NCBI GenBank assembly: GCA_002009975.1
Contig: MTLP01000022.1
Span: 32,001-96,000, forward strand
DNA length: 64,000 bases
Origin: Thermococcus sp. JdFR-02
GTDB lineage: Archaea > Methanobacteriota_B > Thermococci > Thermococcales > Thermococcaceae
Reading direction: 5' to 3'
Shown: piece after piece, positions 18,551 to 22,876 of the stretch
Layout: each line of letters starts with the position of its first letter
How positions within the stretch are numbered: position 1 is the stretch's first letter
Translations under genes and position numbers: made by a program
Notes under the pieces: generated by a model
Database searches by the model: none
Seen by the model: only the letters and a program-made list of their open reading frames with translations
What the model was told of the DNA's origin: nothing

Positions 18551-19129
18551 ATGGCCGAAGAAAAGTTGCCAAAAGGAATTTTAGAAAATCTATTCCCAAA
18601 TGAGGAAGTTCTCTACACCGTGAAAAAGAAGTTTAGCCTTGAAGCAAAGCCCAAATGGCTTGTTGTGACAAATATGCGCATCCTATATATTGACGAGAAG
18701 CTCTTAGGAAGATACGATCTAATAGCGGTTCCCTATGAAAAACTTGAGTTTGTGTATTTTAAAGCTACCAAAGTCTCATCAGAGTTCGTTATTAAAAAAG
18801 AAGATGGAGAAGAGCTTTCTCTTTCAAGACTTGACAAAAATGAAGCTATGAAAGCAATAGAAGCAGTTAGAGATGCTTTAAATGCGATAGCAGTTGAACC
18901 AGTGACAATCCAAAGAAAGAAGAAATTGATGAGTGAGGAATGGATTATTCATAAACCAAAAGAAACTGTAAGCAGGGCAATAAGAGTACAGCGCTCAGTT
19001 CCAACTCTTGTTAAAGAAAAGGAGGACCCAATTGAAAAGCTAAAAAAGCTTAAGGAGCTTTATGACATGGGCATTATAACTCAGGAAGAATACGAAGAAA
19101 AAAGAAGAAAACTTCTTGAAAAAATATAG
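18551..19129 (+). CDS. Bacterial PH-domain protein with C-terminal SHOCT domain
   Basis: LVVTN.RILY; KLKKLKELYDMGIITQEEYEEKRRKLL. Confidence 0.85.
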   Translation: MAEEKLPKGILENLFPNEEVLYTVKKKFSLEAKPKWLVVTNMRILYIDEKLLGRYDLIAVPYEKLEFVYFKATKVSSEFVIKKEDGEELSLSRLDKNEAMKAIEAVRDALNAIAVEPVTIQRKKKLMSEEWIIHKPKETVSRAIRVQRSVPTLVKEKEDPIEKLKKLKELYDMGIITQEEYEEKRRKLLEKI

Positions 19130-19147: not shown

Positions 19148-19348
19148 TTACCATATCCAAAGTTTAGGGTCTGCTTCCTCCCTGCCTTGAAGGGTGAGGA
19201 GTCCTGTTGGAGGCTTATAGTCAGCCGCTAAGGAGTAACCCAAAAGAAAACCCCAGAGAATACTAAAAGGGACAATATAAGGAACATCACTCTTATCTGG
19301 CTTTTCATAGAGGGTCACCTTCTCATTAATGTTATTATTTGTCTGCAC
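19148..19348 (-). pseudogene. Truncated membrane-protein gene running into an IS-end scar
   Basis: Starts immediately after the upstream stop; one TM helix, then reads through the hairpin scar. Confidence 0.4.
19171..19204 (-). mobile_element. IS200/IS605(tnpB)-family end-like hairpin remnant
   Basis: Minus strand GGACTCCTCACCCTTCAAGGCAGGGAGGAAGCAG resembles the archaeal tnpB right-end pattern CCCCGCCCTTCAGGGCGGGGAGGA..CAG. Confidence 0.55.
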
Positions 19349-19349
19349 T

Positions 19350-19721
19350 TCACAACCTCAACGAAGTAGGCATAGTAAAATCCTGATAGAGAACTATTAG
19401 AGAGAGCACCAACATGAACAAAGCAAATCCAGCTATCACTACCCGTTTAATGTAAGATGCATCTTTGAGAAATTTTAAATTCTCCAATATAACAATCGAG
19501 ACAAATACTGCAAATGTCATTGCATCTGAAGCCATTAGATTCAATGGGATTCTCCGATTAATCTTGAGCATAATAACTAAAAGTAGGTATGGAAATGTAA
19601 CAATTCCCGCTTTTTGGAAGCTCTCGAGTGAGATATCCCCAAACTTTTTGTAGTTAAGCAATATGAATGAGAACAAAGAAATAAAGAGGACAGGATAATA
19701 CGTTGGGTTCATTAAGCTCAC
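19350..19721 (-). CDS. 4-TM small membrane protein, candidate immunity protein 2
   Basis: Directly follows precursor 2; hydrophobic. Confidence 0.7.
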   Translation of the reverse strand: MSLMNPTYYPVLFISLFSFILLNYKKFGDISLESFQKAGIVTFPYLLLVIMLKINRRIPLNLMASDAMTFAVFVSIVILENLKFLKDASYIKRVVIAGFALFMLVLSLIVLYQDFTMPTSLRL

Positions 19722-19724
19722 CTC

Positions 19725-20081
19725 TCATGCTGTGAGTCCACCACCGATTGTTGCAAGGGCTCCTCCGAATACTGCACCTAAACCACCACTAGCTATAGCA
19801 ATGCCAACTCCCCCAACAACAAGTGAAACACCAACTCCAATCATGGAATTTGCATCCGATAACTCCAGAGCATATCGTCCAGCCCTTGCATGGTAGTATT
19901 CTGCCATAGTTTTGTCTCCTCTAAGAAGAGCTCTTTCGTATTAATCCATATAGTAATTGTACATCTTTTTAGCAAAATGCCTTTTAATTGCTCCTATCTC
20001 AGCTTTTTCAGCAACTGCTCCATCAATTACCATTCCCACAGCCATCAACACCAGTCCCAACACCAAAGCTTTTCTCCACAT
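19725..20081 (-). pseudogene. Peptide precursor 2 with in-frame TAA at 19941-19943
   Basis: MWRKALVLGLVLMAVGMVIDGAVAEK... is in frame with the 60-aa Gly-rich ORF 19725-19907; GGGGTGA RBS. Confidence 0.8.
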
Positions 20082-20086
20082 TTTAA

Positions 20087-20650
20087 TCACCCCAAACTTT
20101 CGGCAATTTTAAGTGTTATTGTACTCTCAATCAGAGCAGCAATGAAGATTAAAATCATCGAGATAGCAACAAGCTTGAAGAATTCCTTAGCATCCTCCTC
20201 ACTAATCATCTCCTCCTTCTTGCCCAAAGCAAATCTTAAGGCTTCGTAAGGAATCTTGAAGCCAGCTGCTCCGGCTATAATTAAAGCGGGGATTTCGAAA
20301 ATGCCGTGGGGGAAGATTAGGAGAAAGAATGTTTTAACTTCGCCTAAGCTTAAGGAAGACTGGAATAATACTCCCAAGTTAATTCCATTCATGATTAAGT
20401 TTAGAAAAGTCAAACCCCCAAAAGTCAAAACACCGCCAAATGAAAGGAGAAGAATAACTTTGAAATTGTTTGCGAAGATATAAGAAAAACTTAGCTTTTC
20501 TTCACTAAACTCTCTTTCTAAAAATGGGGCAATATTGACATTTTCATGTTCATGAATTTTATAATGGGTTGAGAGTGAAATCCCAAGGAGAAACCCAATA
20601 AAAAATAGTAGAGATGAAAGGAAAATAGGCCTGTTGAGCTTCTCCTTCAA
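20087..20650 (-). CDS. SpoIIM/DUF95-family membrane protein
   Basis: IF.NN..V, NG..LG, PHGIFEIPA, IAALIES motifs. Confidence 0.92.
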   Translation of the reverse strand: MKEKLNRPIFLSSLLFFIGFLLGISLSTHYKIHEHENVNIAPFLEREFSEEKLSFSYIFANNFKVILLLSFGGVLTFGGLTFLNLIMNGINLGVLFQSSLSLGEVKTFFLLIFPHGIFEIPALIIAGAAGFKIPYEALRFALGKKEEMISEEDAKEFFKLVAISMILIFIAALIESTITLKIAESLG

Positions 20651-20865
20651 TTTTGAGCCTCCTTTGCCATTGGTAGGAGGAATTCTATGGCATATCCAAG
20701 CTCTGCGTATATTATTGTAAAGGCTAGCATTGCCCCAAGGAAGTCTGTCACTGATTTAATGGGAAGGAAGTCGTTAAAGAGTAACGCTATGCTCACAGTT
20801 GTTCCAAAAGCCATTATGAACCCAACGACAAGTAAGCCAATGTACTTTCTAATAGATCCCTTCAT
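20647..20865 (-). CDS. 72-aa 2-TM protein, candidate immunity protein 1
   Basis: MKGSIRKYIGLLVVGF...; GGGGG RBS; TTGA overlap with the SpoIIM gene. Confidence 0.75.
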   Translation of the reverse strand: MKGSIRKYIGLLVVGFIMAFGTTVSIALLFNDFLPIKSVTDFLGAMLAFTIIYAELGYAIEFLLPMAKEAQN

Positions 20866-20876
20866 ATAACGTCCCC

Positions 20877-21143
20877 CTAGGCCCACACCGCAAGACCAAC
20901 ATAGGGTATTGCCTTTGCTACAGTTTTTAAACCAAACTTTAGAGCAAATTTTGTGGCTACTGCAGCGCTTCCTAATGCTGCAGTGCCTGCCTTTACCCCA
21001 CCCATAGCTTGTCGCCAATCTCCTGTTTTGTGCCACCTATAAATCCCATATGCTATATCAAATTTCCCTTTTTCAACTGCTCCACCCACTACCATTCCTA
21101 CAGTCATCAACACTAGCCCTAACACTAAAGCCTTCCTCCACAT
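20877..21143 (-). CDS. 88-aa peptide precursor 1 (cationic, Gly/Ala-rich, bacteriocin-like)
   Basis: MWRKALVLGLVLMTVGMVVGGAVEK leader; core ends ...KAIPYVGLAVWA; GGTGG RBS; BRE-TATA GAAAAC-TTTAAATA near 21179-21192. Confidence 0.8.
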   Translation of the reverse strand: MWRKALVLGLVLMTVGMVVGGAVEKGKFDIAYGIYRWHKTGDWRQAMGGVKAGTAALGSAAVATKFALKFGLKTVAKAIPYVGLAVWA

Positions 21144-21523
21144 TTGAAAACCACCAATCGAGTTCGTGTTCTTAATACTATTTAAAGTTTTCTTTATAAT
21201 TCCATAATTACTATTGACATTTTTATGATGATTGAACAGAATATATAACAATCACAAATAGTAAGTTGTGGTTCCCATTAAGTCATTGAAAATTTGTAAG
21301 TACGTGAGTTTTTGAGCAAAGCAATGCAATGGAAGATCAAAAATCAGATTGCTAATCTGACTGAAAGAAAGTTTTGCAAGTACTTGTCCGATTTCCACAG
21401 GAGAATTGATCTGACTCTCAATCTAAATAGATTGTACAACTTCACAGGGGGTAGAAACTAAAGTTCATATCATTAACCTAAGGGTTATAAACTTAATCTA
21501 CATCTCTTATTTTGGTGGTGAAA

Positions 21524-22876
21524 GTGGCTTTAGAAAATTTGGGAAAAGCCTTAAATAACGCCCTAAAAAAGCTTGCTCGTGCTAGAACTGTTGATGAAGC
21601 TGTAATAAAAGAAGTTGTGAGAGATATTCAAAGAGCTTTAATCATGAGTGATGTTAATGTTAGATTAGTCCTTGAATTGACGAAAAAAATCGAAAAGAGA
21701 GCGTTAGAAGAAAAATTACCCCCTGGAATTTCAAGAAAGGAGCACATAATCAAAATAGTTTATGAAGAGCTGACAAACTTCTTGGGAAAAGAAGCCAAGC
21801 CAATTGAGATTAGAGGAAAACCTACTGTTCTCTTAATGGTTGGTATTCAAGGTTCAGGTAAAACCACAAGTGTTGGAAAATTGGCGAGATATCTGCAAAA
21901 GAGGGGTTATAGAGTGGGATTAGTTTGTGCAGATACTTGGAGACCCGGAGCATATCATCAACTAAAGCAACTCGCTGAACCCTTTGGAATTGAAGTTTTC
22001 GGGAATCCAGAGGAAAAAGATGCGGTGAAATTAGCTAAAGAAGGTGTAGACTATTTTAGGCAAAAAGGAGTTGATGTGATTATCGTTGATTCTGCTGGAC
22101 GACATAAAGAGGAGAAGGGACTAATTGAAGAGATGAAACAGATAAGCAGTGCAATAAAACCCCATGAAGTTATTTTAGTAATTGATGGAACAATCGGGCA
22201 GCAAGCATATAACCAAGCCTTAGCCTTTAAAGAAGCGACTCCAATCGGTTCAATAATAGTAACAAAGCTCGATGGGAGTGCAAAGGGAGGAGGAGCATTA
22301 TCTGCAGTTGTTGCCACGGGAGCACCAATTAAATTTATTGGCGTTGGTGAGAAAATTGATGATTTAGAACCCTTTGATCCAAAGCGCTTTGTCTCAAGAT
22401 TGCTTGGTTTAGGAGATATTCAAGGACTCTTGGAAAAGTTTGAAGAAGCGAGCAAAGAAGTAAAAATTGAACAGGATATTGAGAAATTCATACGTGGGAA
22501 GTTTAACTTGAGAGATATGTATACTCAATTAGAAGCTATGCAAAAGATGGGACCTCTAAAGCAAATATTACAGATGATACCCGGGCTAGGGTATGAATTG
22601 CCAGATGATATGGTTAGGATGAGTGAAGAAAGGCTTAAAAAGTTTAAAGTCATTATGGACTCAATGACGAAAGAGGAACTTGAGAATCCTTCCATAATCA
22701 ATTACTCAAGAATTAAAAGAATTGCAAGAGGTTCTGGGACTTCTGTTAGAGATGTGAGGGAGCTATTAGAGCAATATAATCAGATGAAAAAATTCTTTAA
22801 GAGTATGAATAGGAGAAAATTGGCAAAGATGGCAAGAAAATTAGGTGGAATGAATTTTGGAGGGTTTGGAATATGA
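21524..22876 (+). CDS. srp54: Signal recognition particle 54-kDa protein
   Basis: [27 protein letters not shown]-domain [11 protein letters not shown]. Confidence 0.97.

What the first reader, a model, noticed from the sequence alone, without database searches (positions are those of the whole stretch)
19350..21190. Modular archaeal bacteriocin-like locus: shared leader, swappable cores, cognate membrane proteins and SpoIIM/DUF95
Seen: promoter, then precursor 1 (88 aa), 72-aa 2-TM gene, SpoIIM/DUF95, precursor 2 (118 codons) and a 123-aa 4-TM gene, all tightly spaced. Both precursors begin MWRKALVLGLVLM(T/A)VGMV..GAV(A)EK, then diverge completely into a cationic Ala/Gly-rich core (...AKAIPYVGLAVWA) or a Gly-zipper core (...GGALATIGGGLTA). 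The ORF track hides this. Known: DUF95/SpoIIM proteins mark circular bacteriocin clusters such as AS-48 and circularin, and SpoIIM-linked peptide loci have been predicted computationally in archaea. Inference: a polymorphic toxin-immunity cassette system making membrane-active, possibly head-to-tail cyclised, thermostable peptides.
Basis: partly seen in the sequence, partly recalled or inferred. Interest (0 to 1): 0.85.

Follow-up and report, generated by a model that had tools for sequence, protein, structure and literature searches.

The report
Archaeal leader-peptide and SpoIIM gene cassettes
This heat-loving archaeon carries small gene cassettes in which one conserved leader is joined to many different short peptides, each beside its own small membrane protein and a SpoIIM-type membrane protein, an arrangement that looks like bacterial antimicrobial-peptide loci but has not been tested.

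Summary
The locus is real, on the minus strand. It reads: promoter-like box, an 88-aa precursor (P1), a 72-aa two-helix gene, SpoIIM (PF01944, E 1.9e-32), a second leader-bearing gene (P2), a 123-aa membrane gene and a 66-aa ORF, with gaps of 1 to 11 nt or a 4-nt overlap.

One correction: P2 is not an intact 118-codon ORF. It has an in-frame TAA at 19941-19943, also present in a contig from an independent run. Intact relatives read K or L there, so P2 is most likely a decayed copy.

- The 21-aa leader recurs in 21 of 97 Thermococcaceae genomes and in 0 of 36 genomes from other families of the phylum.
- It heads at least 15 core classes, and 24 clusters among 1.84 billion representative proteins.
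- 34 of 40 leader ORFs have a SpoIIM gene downstream.
- The gene after the core co-varies with the core.
- Only the promoter, leader and SpoIIM 3' half are conserved.

Archaeoglobales carry the same cassette with a different leader and some shared cores.

No precursor matches a known bacteriocin family, there is no ABC ATPase, and the folds were of low confidence. Killing, immunity, leader cleavage and ring closure are all inferred. My verdict is a new variant of bacteriocin-like precursor-plus-DUF95 loci, function untested.

The parts
21144..21264 (-). Conserved upstream region with a BRE/TATA-like GAAAAC-TTTAAATA at 21192-21179 and a GGTGG ribosome-binding-like site before the ATG.
   Evidence: It is 75-79% identical in DNA to the upstream regions of the two paralogous loci of the same genome, together with the leader. 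That the motif matches the archaeal promoter consensus is recalled, not tested.
20877..21143 (-). Precursor P1, 88 aa. It has a conserved 21-aa hydrophobic leader (21081-21143) and a 67-aa cationic core rich in Ala and Gly (20880-21080; net charge +7, pI 10.1, no membrane-spanning segment).
   Evidence: Close homologues are 72-86% identical with no Pfam match and no source name. There is no Pfam or NCBIfam match.
20647..20865 (-). 72-aa protein with two membrane helices; candidate immunity or SpoIIM-partner protein.
   Evidence: Homologues lie next to cassette SpoIIM genes in L046 (92% identical), L043, L014, L041, L042, L050 and L054. There is no Pfam match above cut-off.
20087..20650 (-). 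Cassette-type SpoIIM/DUF95 membrane protein, 187 aa. The N-half is variable and the C-half strongly conserved (LPHGxFEIP...AGAAGFKIPYE...).
   Evidence: PF01944 at E 1.9e-32. Among 10 cassette copies the N-half is 38% identical and the C-half 77%.
19725..20081 (-). P2: a second leader-bearing gene interrupted by an in-frame TAA at 19941-19943. It is most likely a nonsense-mutated copy. The downstream 60-aa Gly-zipper ORF starts at 19907.
   Evidence: Read with X at the stop, it aligns across that position to P0017 (which has K there; E 2e-22) and to the paralogue on contig C15 of the window's genome (L there; E 1e-21). The stop is present in contigs of runs X1 and X3.
19350..19721 (-). 123-aa membrane protein with about four hydrophobic segments, downstream of P2. 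It is an orphan in the genome set.
   Evidence: No homologue was found in the other 96 family genomes. There is no Pfam match.
19148..19348 (-). 66-aa ORF. It may be a remnant of the first helix of a lost second SpoIIM gene; the evidence is weak.
   Evidence: hhalign against the SpoIIM profile gives 17 columns at 53% identity at helix 1, E 0.007 but probability only 5%.

Best explanation
The locus holds two units of a modular peptide cassette specific to hyperthermophilic archaea. A full unit has three parts:
1. A small pre-peptide whose conserved hydrophobic N-terminal leader is joined to one of many unrelated cores of 50-90 aa.
2. In most units, a small membrane protein specific to that core.
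3. A dedicated SpoIIM/DUF95 paralogue.

I read it as a bacteriocin-like (archaeocin) production and self-protection system. In this reading the leader takes the pre-peptide to the membrane, where the conserved half of SpoIIM recognises it. SpoIIM removes the leader, exports the core, or both. The released cationic or glycine-zipper peptide attacks the membranes of competitors, and the small membrane protein, perhaps with the variable half of SpoIIM, protects the producer.

The conserved flanks are the promoter plus leader on one side and the SpoIIM 3' half on the other. They allow the middle part (core, small membrane gene, SpoIIM 5' half) to be exchanged by recombination.

In this window the first unit (P1, 72-aa gene, SpoIIM) is intact. 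The second (P2, 123-aa gene, 66-aa ORF) is decayed.

Shown here: the architecture, its recurrence, the linkage, the co-variation, and purifying selection on the leader. Inferred: secretion, leader cleavage, killing, immunity, and the role of SpoIIM.
For: - Leader recurrence. It occurs in 21 of 97 Thermococcaceae genomes at E<=0.001, counting this genome, and in 0 of 36 genomes of five other families of the phylum. Copies are often tandem, for example five units in 10 kb in G086.
- SpoIIM linkage. 34 of 40 leader ORFs have a SpoIIM gene downstream on the same strand. The six misses are two contig ends, one decayed copy, and three second precursors placed directly after a SpoIIM gene. In this genome, 3 of 4 SpoIIM paralogues follow a leader ORF.
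- Core diversity. The 32 intact precursors fall into 15 core classes. The leader profile finds 24 clusters among 1.84 billion representatives, all 56-110 aa with the leader at the N-terminus.
- Selection on the leader. Over 496 pairs, leader codons 2-21 give pS 0.59 and pN 0.13. This points to long-term selection on the peptide sequence, not recent gene conversion.
- Co-variation. The gene after the core co-varies with the core: 23 of 43 same-core pairs, against 2.5 in shuffles, with 0 of 10000 shuffles reaching the observed value. Orphan small membrane genes without a precursor also occur.
- Conserved flanks. Only the flanks are alignable between the three paralogous loci of this genome. The SpoIIM C-half is 77% identical and the N-half 38%.
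- A second order. Archaeoglobales show the same architecture with a different leader. 12 of 14 assessable SpoIIM genes have a leader ORF upstream. Three core classes are shared across the two orders (z = 16, 11 and 5.5; 0 of 2000 shuffles each), and one downstream gene is shared at E 4.7e-8.
- Link to bacterial systems. SpoIIM genes on B. thuringiensis plasmids sit in annotated circular-bacteriocin clusters, one of them directly after the precursor. One of those precursors has a signal-like leader. They share the LPHGxxEIPALIIAGAxGFK motif with the cassette type.
- Peptide properties. The P1 core has net charge +7, pI 10.1 and no membrane-spanning segment. 29 of 32 intact precursors have no charged residue in the last ten.
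Against: - No precursor class matches any Pfam or NCBIfam family. The two Bacillus controls do hit PF09221.
- The P1 profile finds no solved structure and does not align to a Bacillus circular-bacteriocin precursor.
- The window locus has no ABC ATPase and no large membrane protein, both of which published definitions of circular-bacteriocin clusters require.
- Both AlphaFold models are of low confidence, pLDDT 55.6 and 54.0, so the fold is unknown.
- The co-variation could simply reflect inheritance of linked genes, because related genomes are not independent.
- The role of DUF95 is unsettled even in bacteria. One study found that the mature circular peptide accumulates inside cells without it, which suggests export (passage in PMC7132975). 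A 2026 paper proposes cleavage plus ligation (passages in PMC13463998).
- There are no expression or peptide data.
Confidence: 0.55

Rival explanations
1. The products are not weapons. They are a fast-evolving family of small membrane or envelope proteins, for example in membrane remodelling or vesicle formation, which a dedicated SpoIIM paralogue inserts or assembles. The small membrane genes would be partner subunits.
For: Makarova et al. 2015 proposed a role in membrane remodelling or vesicle formation for archaeal SpoIIM (arCOG01994) and noted several paralogues per genome (passages in PMC5898192). Most cores end in a hydrophobic Gly/Ala-rich stretch that could stay in the producer's membrane. 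There is no homology to any toxin.
Against: Several features are typical of conflict systems and unusual for housekeeping membrane proteins:
- patchy distribution, for example 3 of 62 genomes in one genus against 11 of 14 in another;
- tandem arrays, many decayed copies and orphan small genes;
- no shared flanking genes between genomes;
- exchange of cores between two archaeal orders.

In addition, the P1 core is cationic with no membrane-spanning segment.
Confidence: 0.22
2. The peptides are ordinary Sec-secreted linear bacteriocin-like peptides cut by signal peptidase. SpoIIM serves only as an immunity or export helper and has no role in maturation.
For: The leader has the layout of a signal peptide: basic MWRK, a 15-residue hydrophobic run, then small residues GGA. 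In leucocyclicin Q, the DUF95 protein was needed for secretion rather than ring closure (passage in PMC7132975).
Against: A generic signal peptide is not expected to be held at 78% mean identity while the mature parts become unalignable. It would also not be expected to be tied so tightly to one SpoIIM subfamily whose conserved half tracks it. No signal-peptide predictor was available, so cleavage by signal peptidase is neither shown nor excluded.
Confidence: 0.15
3. The cassettes are intracellular toxin-antitoxin or antiviral abortive-infection modules. The small hydrophobic peptide would damage the producer's own membrane, and the membrane partners would hold it in check.
For: The evidence is small hydrophobic peptides with adjacent small membrane proteins, patchy distribution, arrays and decay. 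An AAA_14/DUF4143 ATPase gene often follows the cassette in one genus.
Against: There are 0 hits to PADLOC defence models or PHROGs for all six window proteins. Only three distant SpoIIM relatives, 28-30% identical, occur in viral contigs. The signal-like leader points to export.
Confidence: 0.06
4. The proteins are pilin-like subunits of a surface fibre, whose N-terminus is cut by a prepilin peptidase after MWRKA.
For: The start K-A-L followed by a hydrophobic run resembles a class III signal peptide. The motif is recalled; no predictor was run.
Against: The products are only 50-90 aa, helical in the low-confidence models, and Gly/Ala-rich, with a second hydrophobic end instead of a globular domain. 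No pilus-assembly genes lie nearby. The Archaeoglobales leaders carry a 10- to 25-residue acidic extension in front of the hydrophobic run.
Confidence: 0.02

Closest known systems
Head-to-tail cyclised (circular) bacteriocin gene clusters of Bacillota (uberolysin/carnocyclin/circularin A type, PF09221). Examples seen here: B. thuringiensis plasmids pYGD30 and pSCG61.
   Same: A small precursor gene sits next to a SpoIIM/DUF95 gene. One Bacillus precursor has a signal-like hydrophobic leader of about 38 residues ahead of a 61-aa Gly/Ala-rich cationic core. P1 has a 21-aa leader and a 67-aa cationic core. A small hydrophobic gene is present, as for immunity proteins. The two kinds of SpoIIM share the motif LPHGxxEIPALIIAGAxGFK.
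   Different: - There is no sequence match of any archaeal precursor to PF09221 or other bacteriocin families.
- There is no ABC ATPase, large membrane protein or Yip1 gene.
- The cassette has only 2-4 genes.
- One conserved leader heads many unrelated cores, whereas the leaders of circular bacteriocins are described as highly variable (passage in PMC13463998).
- Ring closure is not shown.
Polymorphic toxin systems (conserved N-terminal part, variable C-terminal toxin, cognate immunity gene downstream)
   Same: The constant N-terminus with variable C-terminal parts, a co-varying downstream gene, orphan downstream genes, arrays, and exchange between lineages are all shared.
   Different: The variable parts are 50-90-aa peptides of simple composition with no enzymatic toxin domain. 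The constant part is only a 21-aa leader, not a delivery domain. A SpoIIM gene is part of each unit.
Sec-dependent linear class II bacteriocins with adjacent immunity genes
   Same: They share a signal-like leader, a short cationic or glycine-rich membrane-active-looking peptide, and a small membrane protein gene directly downstream.
   Different: The leader sequence is conserved far beyond what a general signal peptide needs. There is an obligate SpoIIM partner. The comparison rests on recalled properties of that class, not on a test.
Housekeeping archaeal SpoIIM (arCOG01994)
   Same: Same Pfam family. This genome has one such copy on contig C6 with no leader ORF beside it.
   Different: It is only 31-34% identical to the cassette copies and lacks the AGAAGFKIPYE...KKEE..EEDAKEFF block. 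In the literature it is described as mostly stand-alone or linked to arCOG02177 (passages in PMC5898192).
SpoIIM-plus-small-peptide pairs noted earlier in this scan in Asgard archaea and a Gemmatimonadota genome
   Same: A small hydrophobic peptide gene travels with a SpoIIM-type gene. The earlier agents also read these as resembling circular-bacteriocin loci.
   Different: They are in other lineages and I did not check them here. No shared leader with multiple cores was reported in those notes.

Membership tests
Pfam PF01944 SpoIIM/DUF95 (for the 187-aa protein) | Match to the family model above the curated cut-off | tested here: met
   112.9 bits against a cut-off of 26.9, E 1.9e-32, covering profile positions 2-162 of 163.
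Circular bacteriocin gene cluster | A small precursor gene adjacent to a DUF95/SpoIIM gene | tested here: met
   P1 lies 227 nt upstream of SpoIIM with only the 72-aa gene between them. 34 of 40 leader ORFs have a SpoIIM gene downstream.
Circular bacteriocin gene cluster | The precursor belongs to a known circular-bacteriocin sequence family (for example PF09221 or PF16942) | tested here: not met
   There is no Pfam hit for P1, P2, 10 other Thermococcaceae core classes or 7 Archaeoglobales precursors. The two Bacillus controls hit PF09221 above cut-off. The Atlas lists a 'putative cyclic bacteriocin' cluster only at rank 29 with score 0.78, which is within the chance range.
Circular bacteriocin gene cluster | An ATP-binding protein gene in the cluster, required together with the precursor and DUF95 in the definition used in PMC8534725 (passages) | tested here: not met
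   There is none between the flanking bPH/SHOCT gene (18551-19129) and the SRP54 gene (21512-22876). In one genus an AAA_14/DUF4143 ATPase, which is not an ABC type, often follows the cassette.
Circular bacteriocin gene cluster | A compact bundle of four or five helices with the two ends adjacent | tested here: inconclusive
   AlphaFold2 models of P1 (16-row alignment) and of its core (17 rows) have mean pLDDT 55.6 and 54.0. They are helical but not reliable, so I ran no fold search.
Circular bacteriocin gene cluster | Leader removal and a peptide bond between the first and last core residues | not testable with these tools
   This needs mass spectrometry. The only indirect hints are that 31 of 32 intact precursors end in an uncharged residue and 29 of 32 have no charge in the last ten.
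Polymorphic toxin-immunity systems | A constant N-terminal part with variable C-terminal parts and a co-varying downstream gene | tested here: met
   Mean leader identity is 78%, with 15 core classes among 32 precursors. 23 of 43 same-core pairs share the downstream gene class, against 2.5 in shuffles. Related genomes are not independent.
Polymorphic toxin-immunity systems | The variable part is a recognisable toxin domain carried on a large delivery protein | tested here: not met
   All proteins are 56-124 aa, and no Pfam domain is found in any core.
Known antiviral defence systems (PADLOC) | Match of any component to a defence model | tested here: not met
   0 hits for six window proteins at E<=0.1.

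The most novel reading that the evidence does not exclude
These cassettes are a minimal pathway, with no ATPase, in which the SpoIIM/DUF95 protein alone recognises a conserved membrane-embedded leader, cuts it off and joins the ends of the core. The products would be ring-closed, extremely heat-stable archaeocins. Their cores and immunity genes would be traded as modules between Thermococcales and Archaeoglobales at hydrothermal vents. If so, this would be the simplest natural system in which to settle what DUF95 proteins do.
Probability: 0.2. Interest if true: 0.9.

Novelty: new variant of a known kind. Interest (0 to 1): 0.7.

Why it matters
- Few antimicrobial peptides are known from archaea. 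In what I read, a 2026 survey preprint names subtilosin A homologues as its Thermococcus candidates (passages).
- In the held library I found no paper that links SpoIIM to peptide genes in Thermococcales or Archaeoglobales.
- A two- or three-gene unit with one fixed leader and dozens of natural cores would be a compact system for two questions. One is the long-open question of what DUF95 proteins do in peptide maturation. The other is whether there is peptide-based competition among hyperthermophiles.
- The fixed leader also gives a simple search handle for annotating these genes, which currently carry no Pfam family or source name.

Tried and rejected
- Complex prediction of SpoIIM with P1: no verdict, score 0.00, controls not run. 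It counts neither for nor against binding.
- AlphaFold2 of P1 and of its core: too uncertain to compare with known folds, so I ran no fold search.
- Profile search of P1 against solved structures, and of SpoIIM against solved structures: 0 hits each.
- hhalign of the P1 family against a Bacillus circular-bacteriocin precursor: nothing.
- ESM Atlas search on the P1 core: best score 0.89 to unnamed clusters, within the chance range.
- Thermococcaceae leader profile against Archaeoglobales ORFs: precursors scored E 0.12-4.6 among 3267 ORFs. This is not significant, so I do not claim that the two leaders are homologous.
- Sequencing runs: no RNA holder is listed, so nothing can be said about expression.
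- Synteny: the window's flanking genes are not next to cassettes in the other fetched loci.
- Viral contigs: only three distant SpoIIM relatives.
- Programmed read-through of the P2 stop: considered and rejected, because nothing supports it and intact relatives have a sense codon there.
- A SpoIIM family tree to test whether the cassette type derives from bacterial bacteriocin loci: not attempted. I had only three groups and no outgroup.
- Makarova et al. 2019 mBio could not be opened. Supplementary tables of Makarova et al. 2015, which list arCOG01994 neighbourhoods, are closed. Either may already mention this linkage.
- Earlier scan notes for this window and this sequence: nothing.
Full report
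WHAT IS IN THE WINDOW

All genes of the finding lie on the minus strand. Reading downstream:

| Feature | Coordinates | Notes |
|---|---|---|
| BRE/TATA-like box | 21192-21179 | GAAAAC-TTTAAATA, about 40 nt before the first ATG |
| P1 | 20877-21143 | 88 aa |
| 72-aa gene | 20647-20865 | two hydrophobic helices; starts 11 nt after the P1 stop |
| SpoIIM | 20087-20650 | 187 aa; TTG start overlaps the preceding stop by 4 nt |
| P2 | starts at 20081 | second leader-bearing gene; starts 5 nt after the SpoIIM stop |
| 123-aa gene | 19350-19721 | about four hydrophobic segments; starts 3 nt after the P2 stop |
| 66-aa ORF | 19148-19348 | starts 1 nt after the 123-aa stop |

SpoIIM matches PF01944 at 112.9 bits against a cut-off of 26.9. 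No other protein of the locus reaches a Pfam, NCBIfam, PADLOC or PHROGs threshold. The locus sits between a bPH/SHOCT gene and the SRP54 gene.

P2 is not an open 118-codon frame. Codon 47 is TAA (19941-19943). The stop is present without any difference in a contig of run X1, which may be the source of this DNA, and in a 719-nt contig of an independent run, X3. Read with X at the stop, P2 aligns straight across that position. It aligns to an intact relative from the protein library (K at that site, E 2e-22) and to the paralogue on contig C15 of the window's genome (L at that site, E 1e-21). So P2 descends from a single ORF and now carries a nonsense mutation.

Its core and the 123-aa gene have no relative in the other 96 genomes of the family. 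The 66-aa ORF resembles the first helix of SpoIIM over 17 columns (E 0.007, probability 5%). That is a weak hint that the second unit once had its own SpoIIM gene. I read the second unit as decayed.

DOES THE LEADER RECUR WITH VARIABLE CORES?

Yes. In the window's own genome the leader occurs at two further loci, on contigs C3 and C15. Each is followed by a SpoIIM paralogue. A fourth SpoIIM, 31-34% identical, stands alone.

A profile of the four precursors finds matches in 21 of 97 Thermococcaceae genomes at E<=0.001, counting the window's genome. It finds none in 36 genomes of five other families of the phylum. At E<=0.01 the count is 25 of 97, but four of those are weak hits inside proteins of 321-382 aa, which I discount. 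The distribution is patchy: 11 of 14 genomes in one genus, 5 of 9 in another, 3 of 62 in the largest.

In the loci I fetched:
- 34 of 40 leader ORFs have a SpoIIM gene downstream on the same strand.
- The six exceptions are two contig ends, one decayed copy, and three cases, including P2 here, where a second precursor follows a SpoIIM gene directly.
- One genome has five units in 10 kb.
- Split SpoIIM genes and truncated precursors are common.

The 32 intact precursors fall into 15 core classes. A leader-only profile searched against 1.84 billion representative proteins finds 24 clusters. All are 56-110 aa, with the leader at the N-terminus. None of ten further core classes has a Pfam match.

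IS THE LEADER MORE THAN A GENERIC SIGNAL PEPTIDE?

Mean pairwise identity of the first 21 residues is 78%, while the cores cannot be aligned between classes. Over 496 pairs, leader codons 2-21 differ at 59% of synonymous sites but only 13% of non-synonymous sites. The peptide sequence itself has therefore been kept by selection for a long time. Recent gene conversion would not leave that pattern.

Between the three paralogous loci of this genome, only two DNA blocks can be aligned:
- about 120 nt of upstream sequence plus the leader, at 75-79% identity;
- the last 385 nt or so of SpoIIM, at 76% identity.

Everything between them cannot be aligned: most of the core, the small membrane gene and the 5' part of SpoIIM.

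At the protein level, ten cassette SpoIIM copies are 77% identical in the C-half and 38% in the N-half. A conserved leader thus travels with a conserved half of SpoIIM, and a variable core travels with a variable half. That fits direct recognition of the leader by SpoIIM, but I could not show it. The complex prediction gave no verdict.

THE SMALL MEMBRANE GENES

The gene directly after the core goes with the core class. 23 of 43 same-core pairs share it, against 2.5 in label shuffles, and none of 10000 shuffles reached the observed value. Because related genomes inherit linked genes together, this shows a unit, not proof of a functional pair.

The 72-aa family of this window follows P1-type cores in three other genomes. 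In one locus it lies beside the same SpoIIM N-half type but behind a different core that brings its own downstream gene. That looks like a recombinant. It leaves open whether the 72-aa protein pairs with the core or with SpoIIM. Small membrane genes without any precursor also occur.

A SECOND ORDER OF ARCHAEA HAS THE SAME SYSTEM

The nearest SpoIIM relatives outside Thermococcaceae are from Archaeoglobales, at 43-48% identity. That is closer than the genome's own stand-alone paralogue. In 43 Archaeoglobales loci, 12 of 14 assessable SpoIIM genes have, just upstream, a gene of 80-120 aa with a conserved leader of a different sequence. A small membrane gene lies between them.

The two leaders are alike in kind but not demonstrably homologous. 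Three core classes, however, are shared between the orders (z = 16, 11 and 5.5 against shuffles; 0 of 2000 each). One downstream gene is shared too (E 4.7e-8). Cores with their partner genes have therefore moved between lineages that use different leaders. This is the strongest evidence for modularity.

RELATION TO KNOWN SYSTEMS

A translated search of plasmids with the window's SpoIIM finds Bacillus thuringiensis plasmids where the homologue lies in annotated circular-bacteriocin clusters. The match is 38% identical over the C-half. In one cluster it directly follows the precursor. One of those precursors has a signal-like hydrophobic leader ahead of a 61-aa core. The Bacillus protein shares the motif LPHGxxEIPALIIAGAxGFK with the cassette type.

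The P1 core has 67 residues, net charge +7 and pI 10.1, is 34% Gly plus Ala, and has no membrane-spanning segment. 31 of 32 intact precursors end in an uncharged residue, and 29 of 32 have no charge in the last ten.

These are resemblances, and membership fails on tested points:
- No precursor matches PF09221 or any other family, while both Bacillus controls do.
- The locus has no ATP-binding gene, which a published definition requires (passages in PMC8534725).
- Both structure models are unreliable.
- Ring closure cannot be tested here.

What DUF95 proteins do is also unsettled. One study reported that the mature circular peptide piles up inside cells when the DUF95 gene is removed (passage in PMC7132975). 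A 2026 paper proposes that DUF95 both cuts and ligates (passages in PMC13463998).

LITERATURE

I read passages only, found through searches.
- Makarova et al. 2015 describe archaeal SpoIIM (arCOG01994) as having several paralogues. They describe it as mostly stand-alone or linked to arCOG02177, with a proposed role in membrane remodelling (PMC5898192).
- A 2026 preprint on bacteriocins in archaea does not mention SpoIIM, DUF95 or circular peptides.
- Searches for SpoIIM with Thermococc-, for arCOG01994, and for 'circular bacteriocin' with archaea and Thermococcus found nothing on this system.
- Makarova et al. 2019 (mBio) is not held, and supplements are closed. Prior description there cannot be excluded.
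- Earlier notes of this scan report SpoIIM-plus-peptide pairs in Asgard archaea and a Gemmatimonadota genome. I did not check them.

VERDICT

The functional part (secreted membrane-active peptides with immunity, possibly ring-closed) is the best-fitting inference but remains untested. I give the antagonistic-peptide reading 0.55 and ring closure about 0.2.

Noticed in passing
L107 (Methanomethylovorans hollandica plasmid pMETHO01) 2158-3806: Two nearly identical 66-aa very hydrophobic ORFs lie just upstream of a SpoIIM gene. A YIP1-family gene and a regulator are beside them. YIP1 genes also occur in the Bacillus circular-bacteriocin clusters seen here. This is a possible further archaeal peptide-plus-SpoIIM locus.
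   Followed up: partly
L040 9487-10758 and 12311-13600; L043 1269-2540 and 4218-5507; L056 6457-7746; L057 4744-6033; L058 6363-7652: In one Thermococcaceae genus, a 423-429-aa AAA_14 ATPase (one of the two scanned also carries DUF4143) repeatedly lies directly downstream of the cassette SpoIIM gene. It is not an ABC ATPase, and its relation to the cassette is unknown.
   Followed up: partly
window 21193-21264 (minus strand), and the matching parts of L002 and L035: Beyond the BRE/TATA-like box, about 70 nt further upstream are also conserved between the three paralogous loci. This suggests a shared operator for a regulator.
   Followed up: no
L035 1840-2040; L013 and L046/L047 equivalents: The 65-66-aa single-helix gene after P2-type precursors carries the same helical motif as the middle of its own precursor (KYHxYMELYRxAL...YKSYAEEY). 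The leader/core profile picks it up at E 7.7e-5 to 5e-3. It could be a mimic that pairs with the core.
   Followed up: no
L079, L080, L082, L106: Short contigs carrying the Archaeoglobales-type cassette are filed under bacterial bins (Desulfurellaceae, Arcobacter, Bacteroidales, Thermotogaceae). Mis-binning is the likeliest reason; gene transfer is not excluded.
   Followed up: no
window 20229-20287: Metagenome contigs of three runs break, or switch to variant sequence, inside the conserved 3' part of SpoIIM. This is as expected where paralogous copies confuse assembly.
   Followed up: no
L002 1830-2810 (contig C3 of the window's genome): At the paralogous locus on contig C3, an ABC-2 family permease gene is transcribed divergently from the precursor. 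No such gene is at the window locus.
   Followed up: no
window 18551-19129: The convergent neighbour encodes a bacterial-PH (bPH_3) plus SHOCT domain protein. It has no evident link to the cassette.
   Followed up: no
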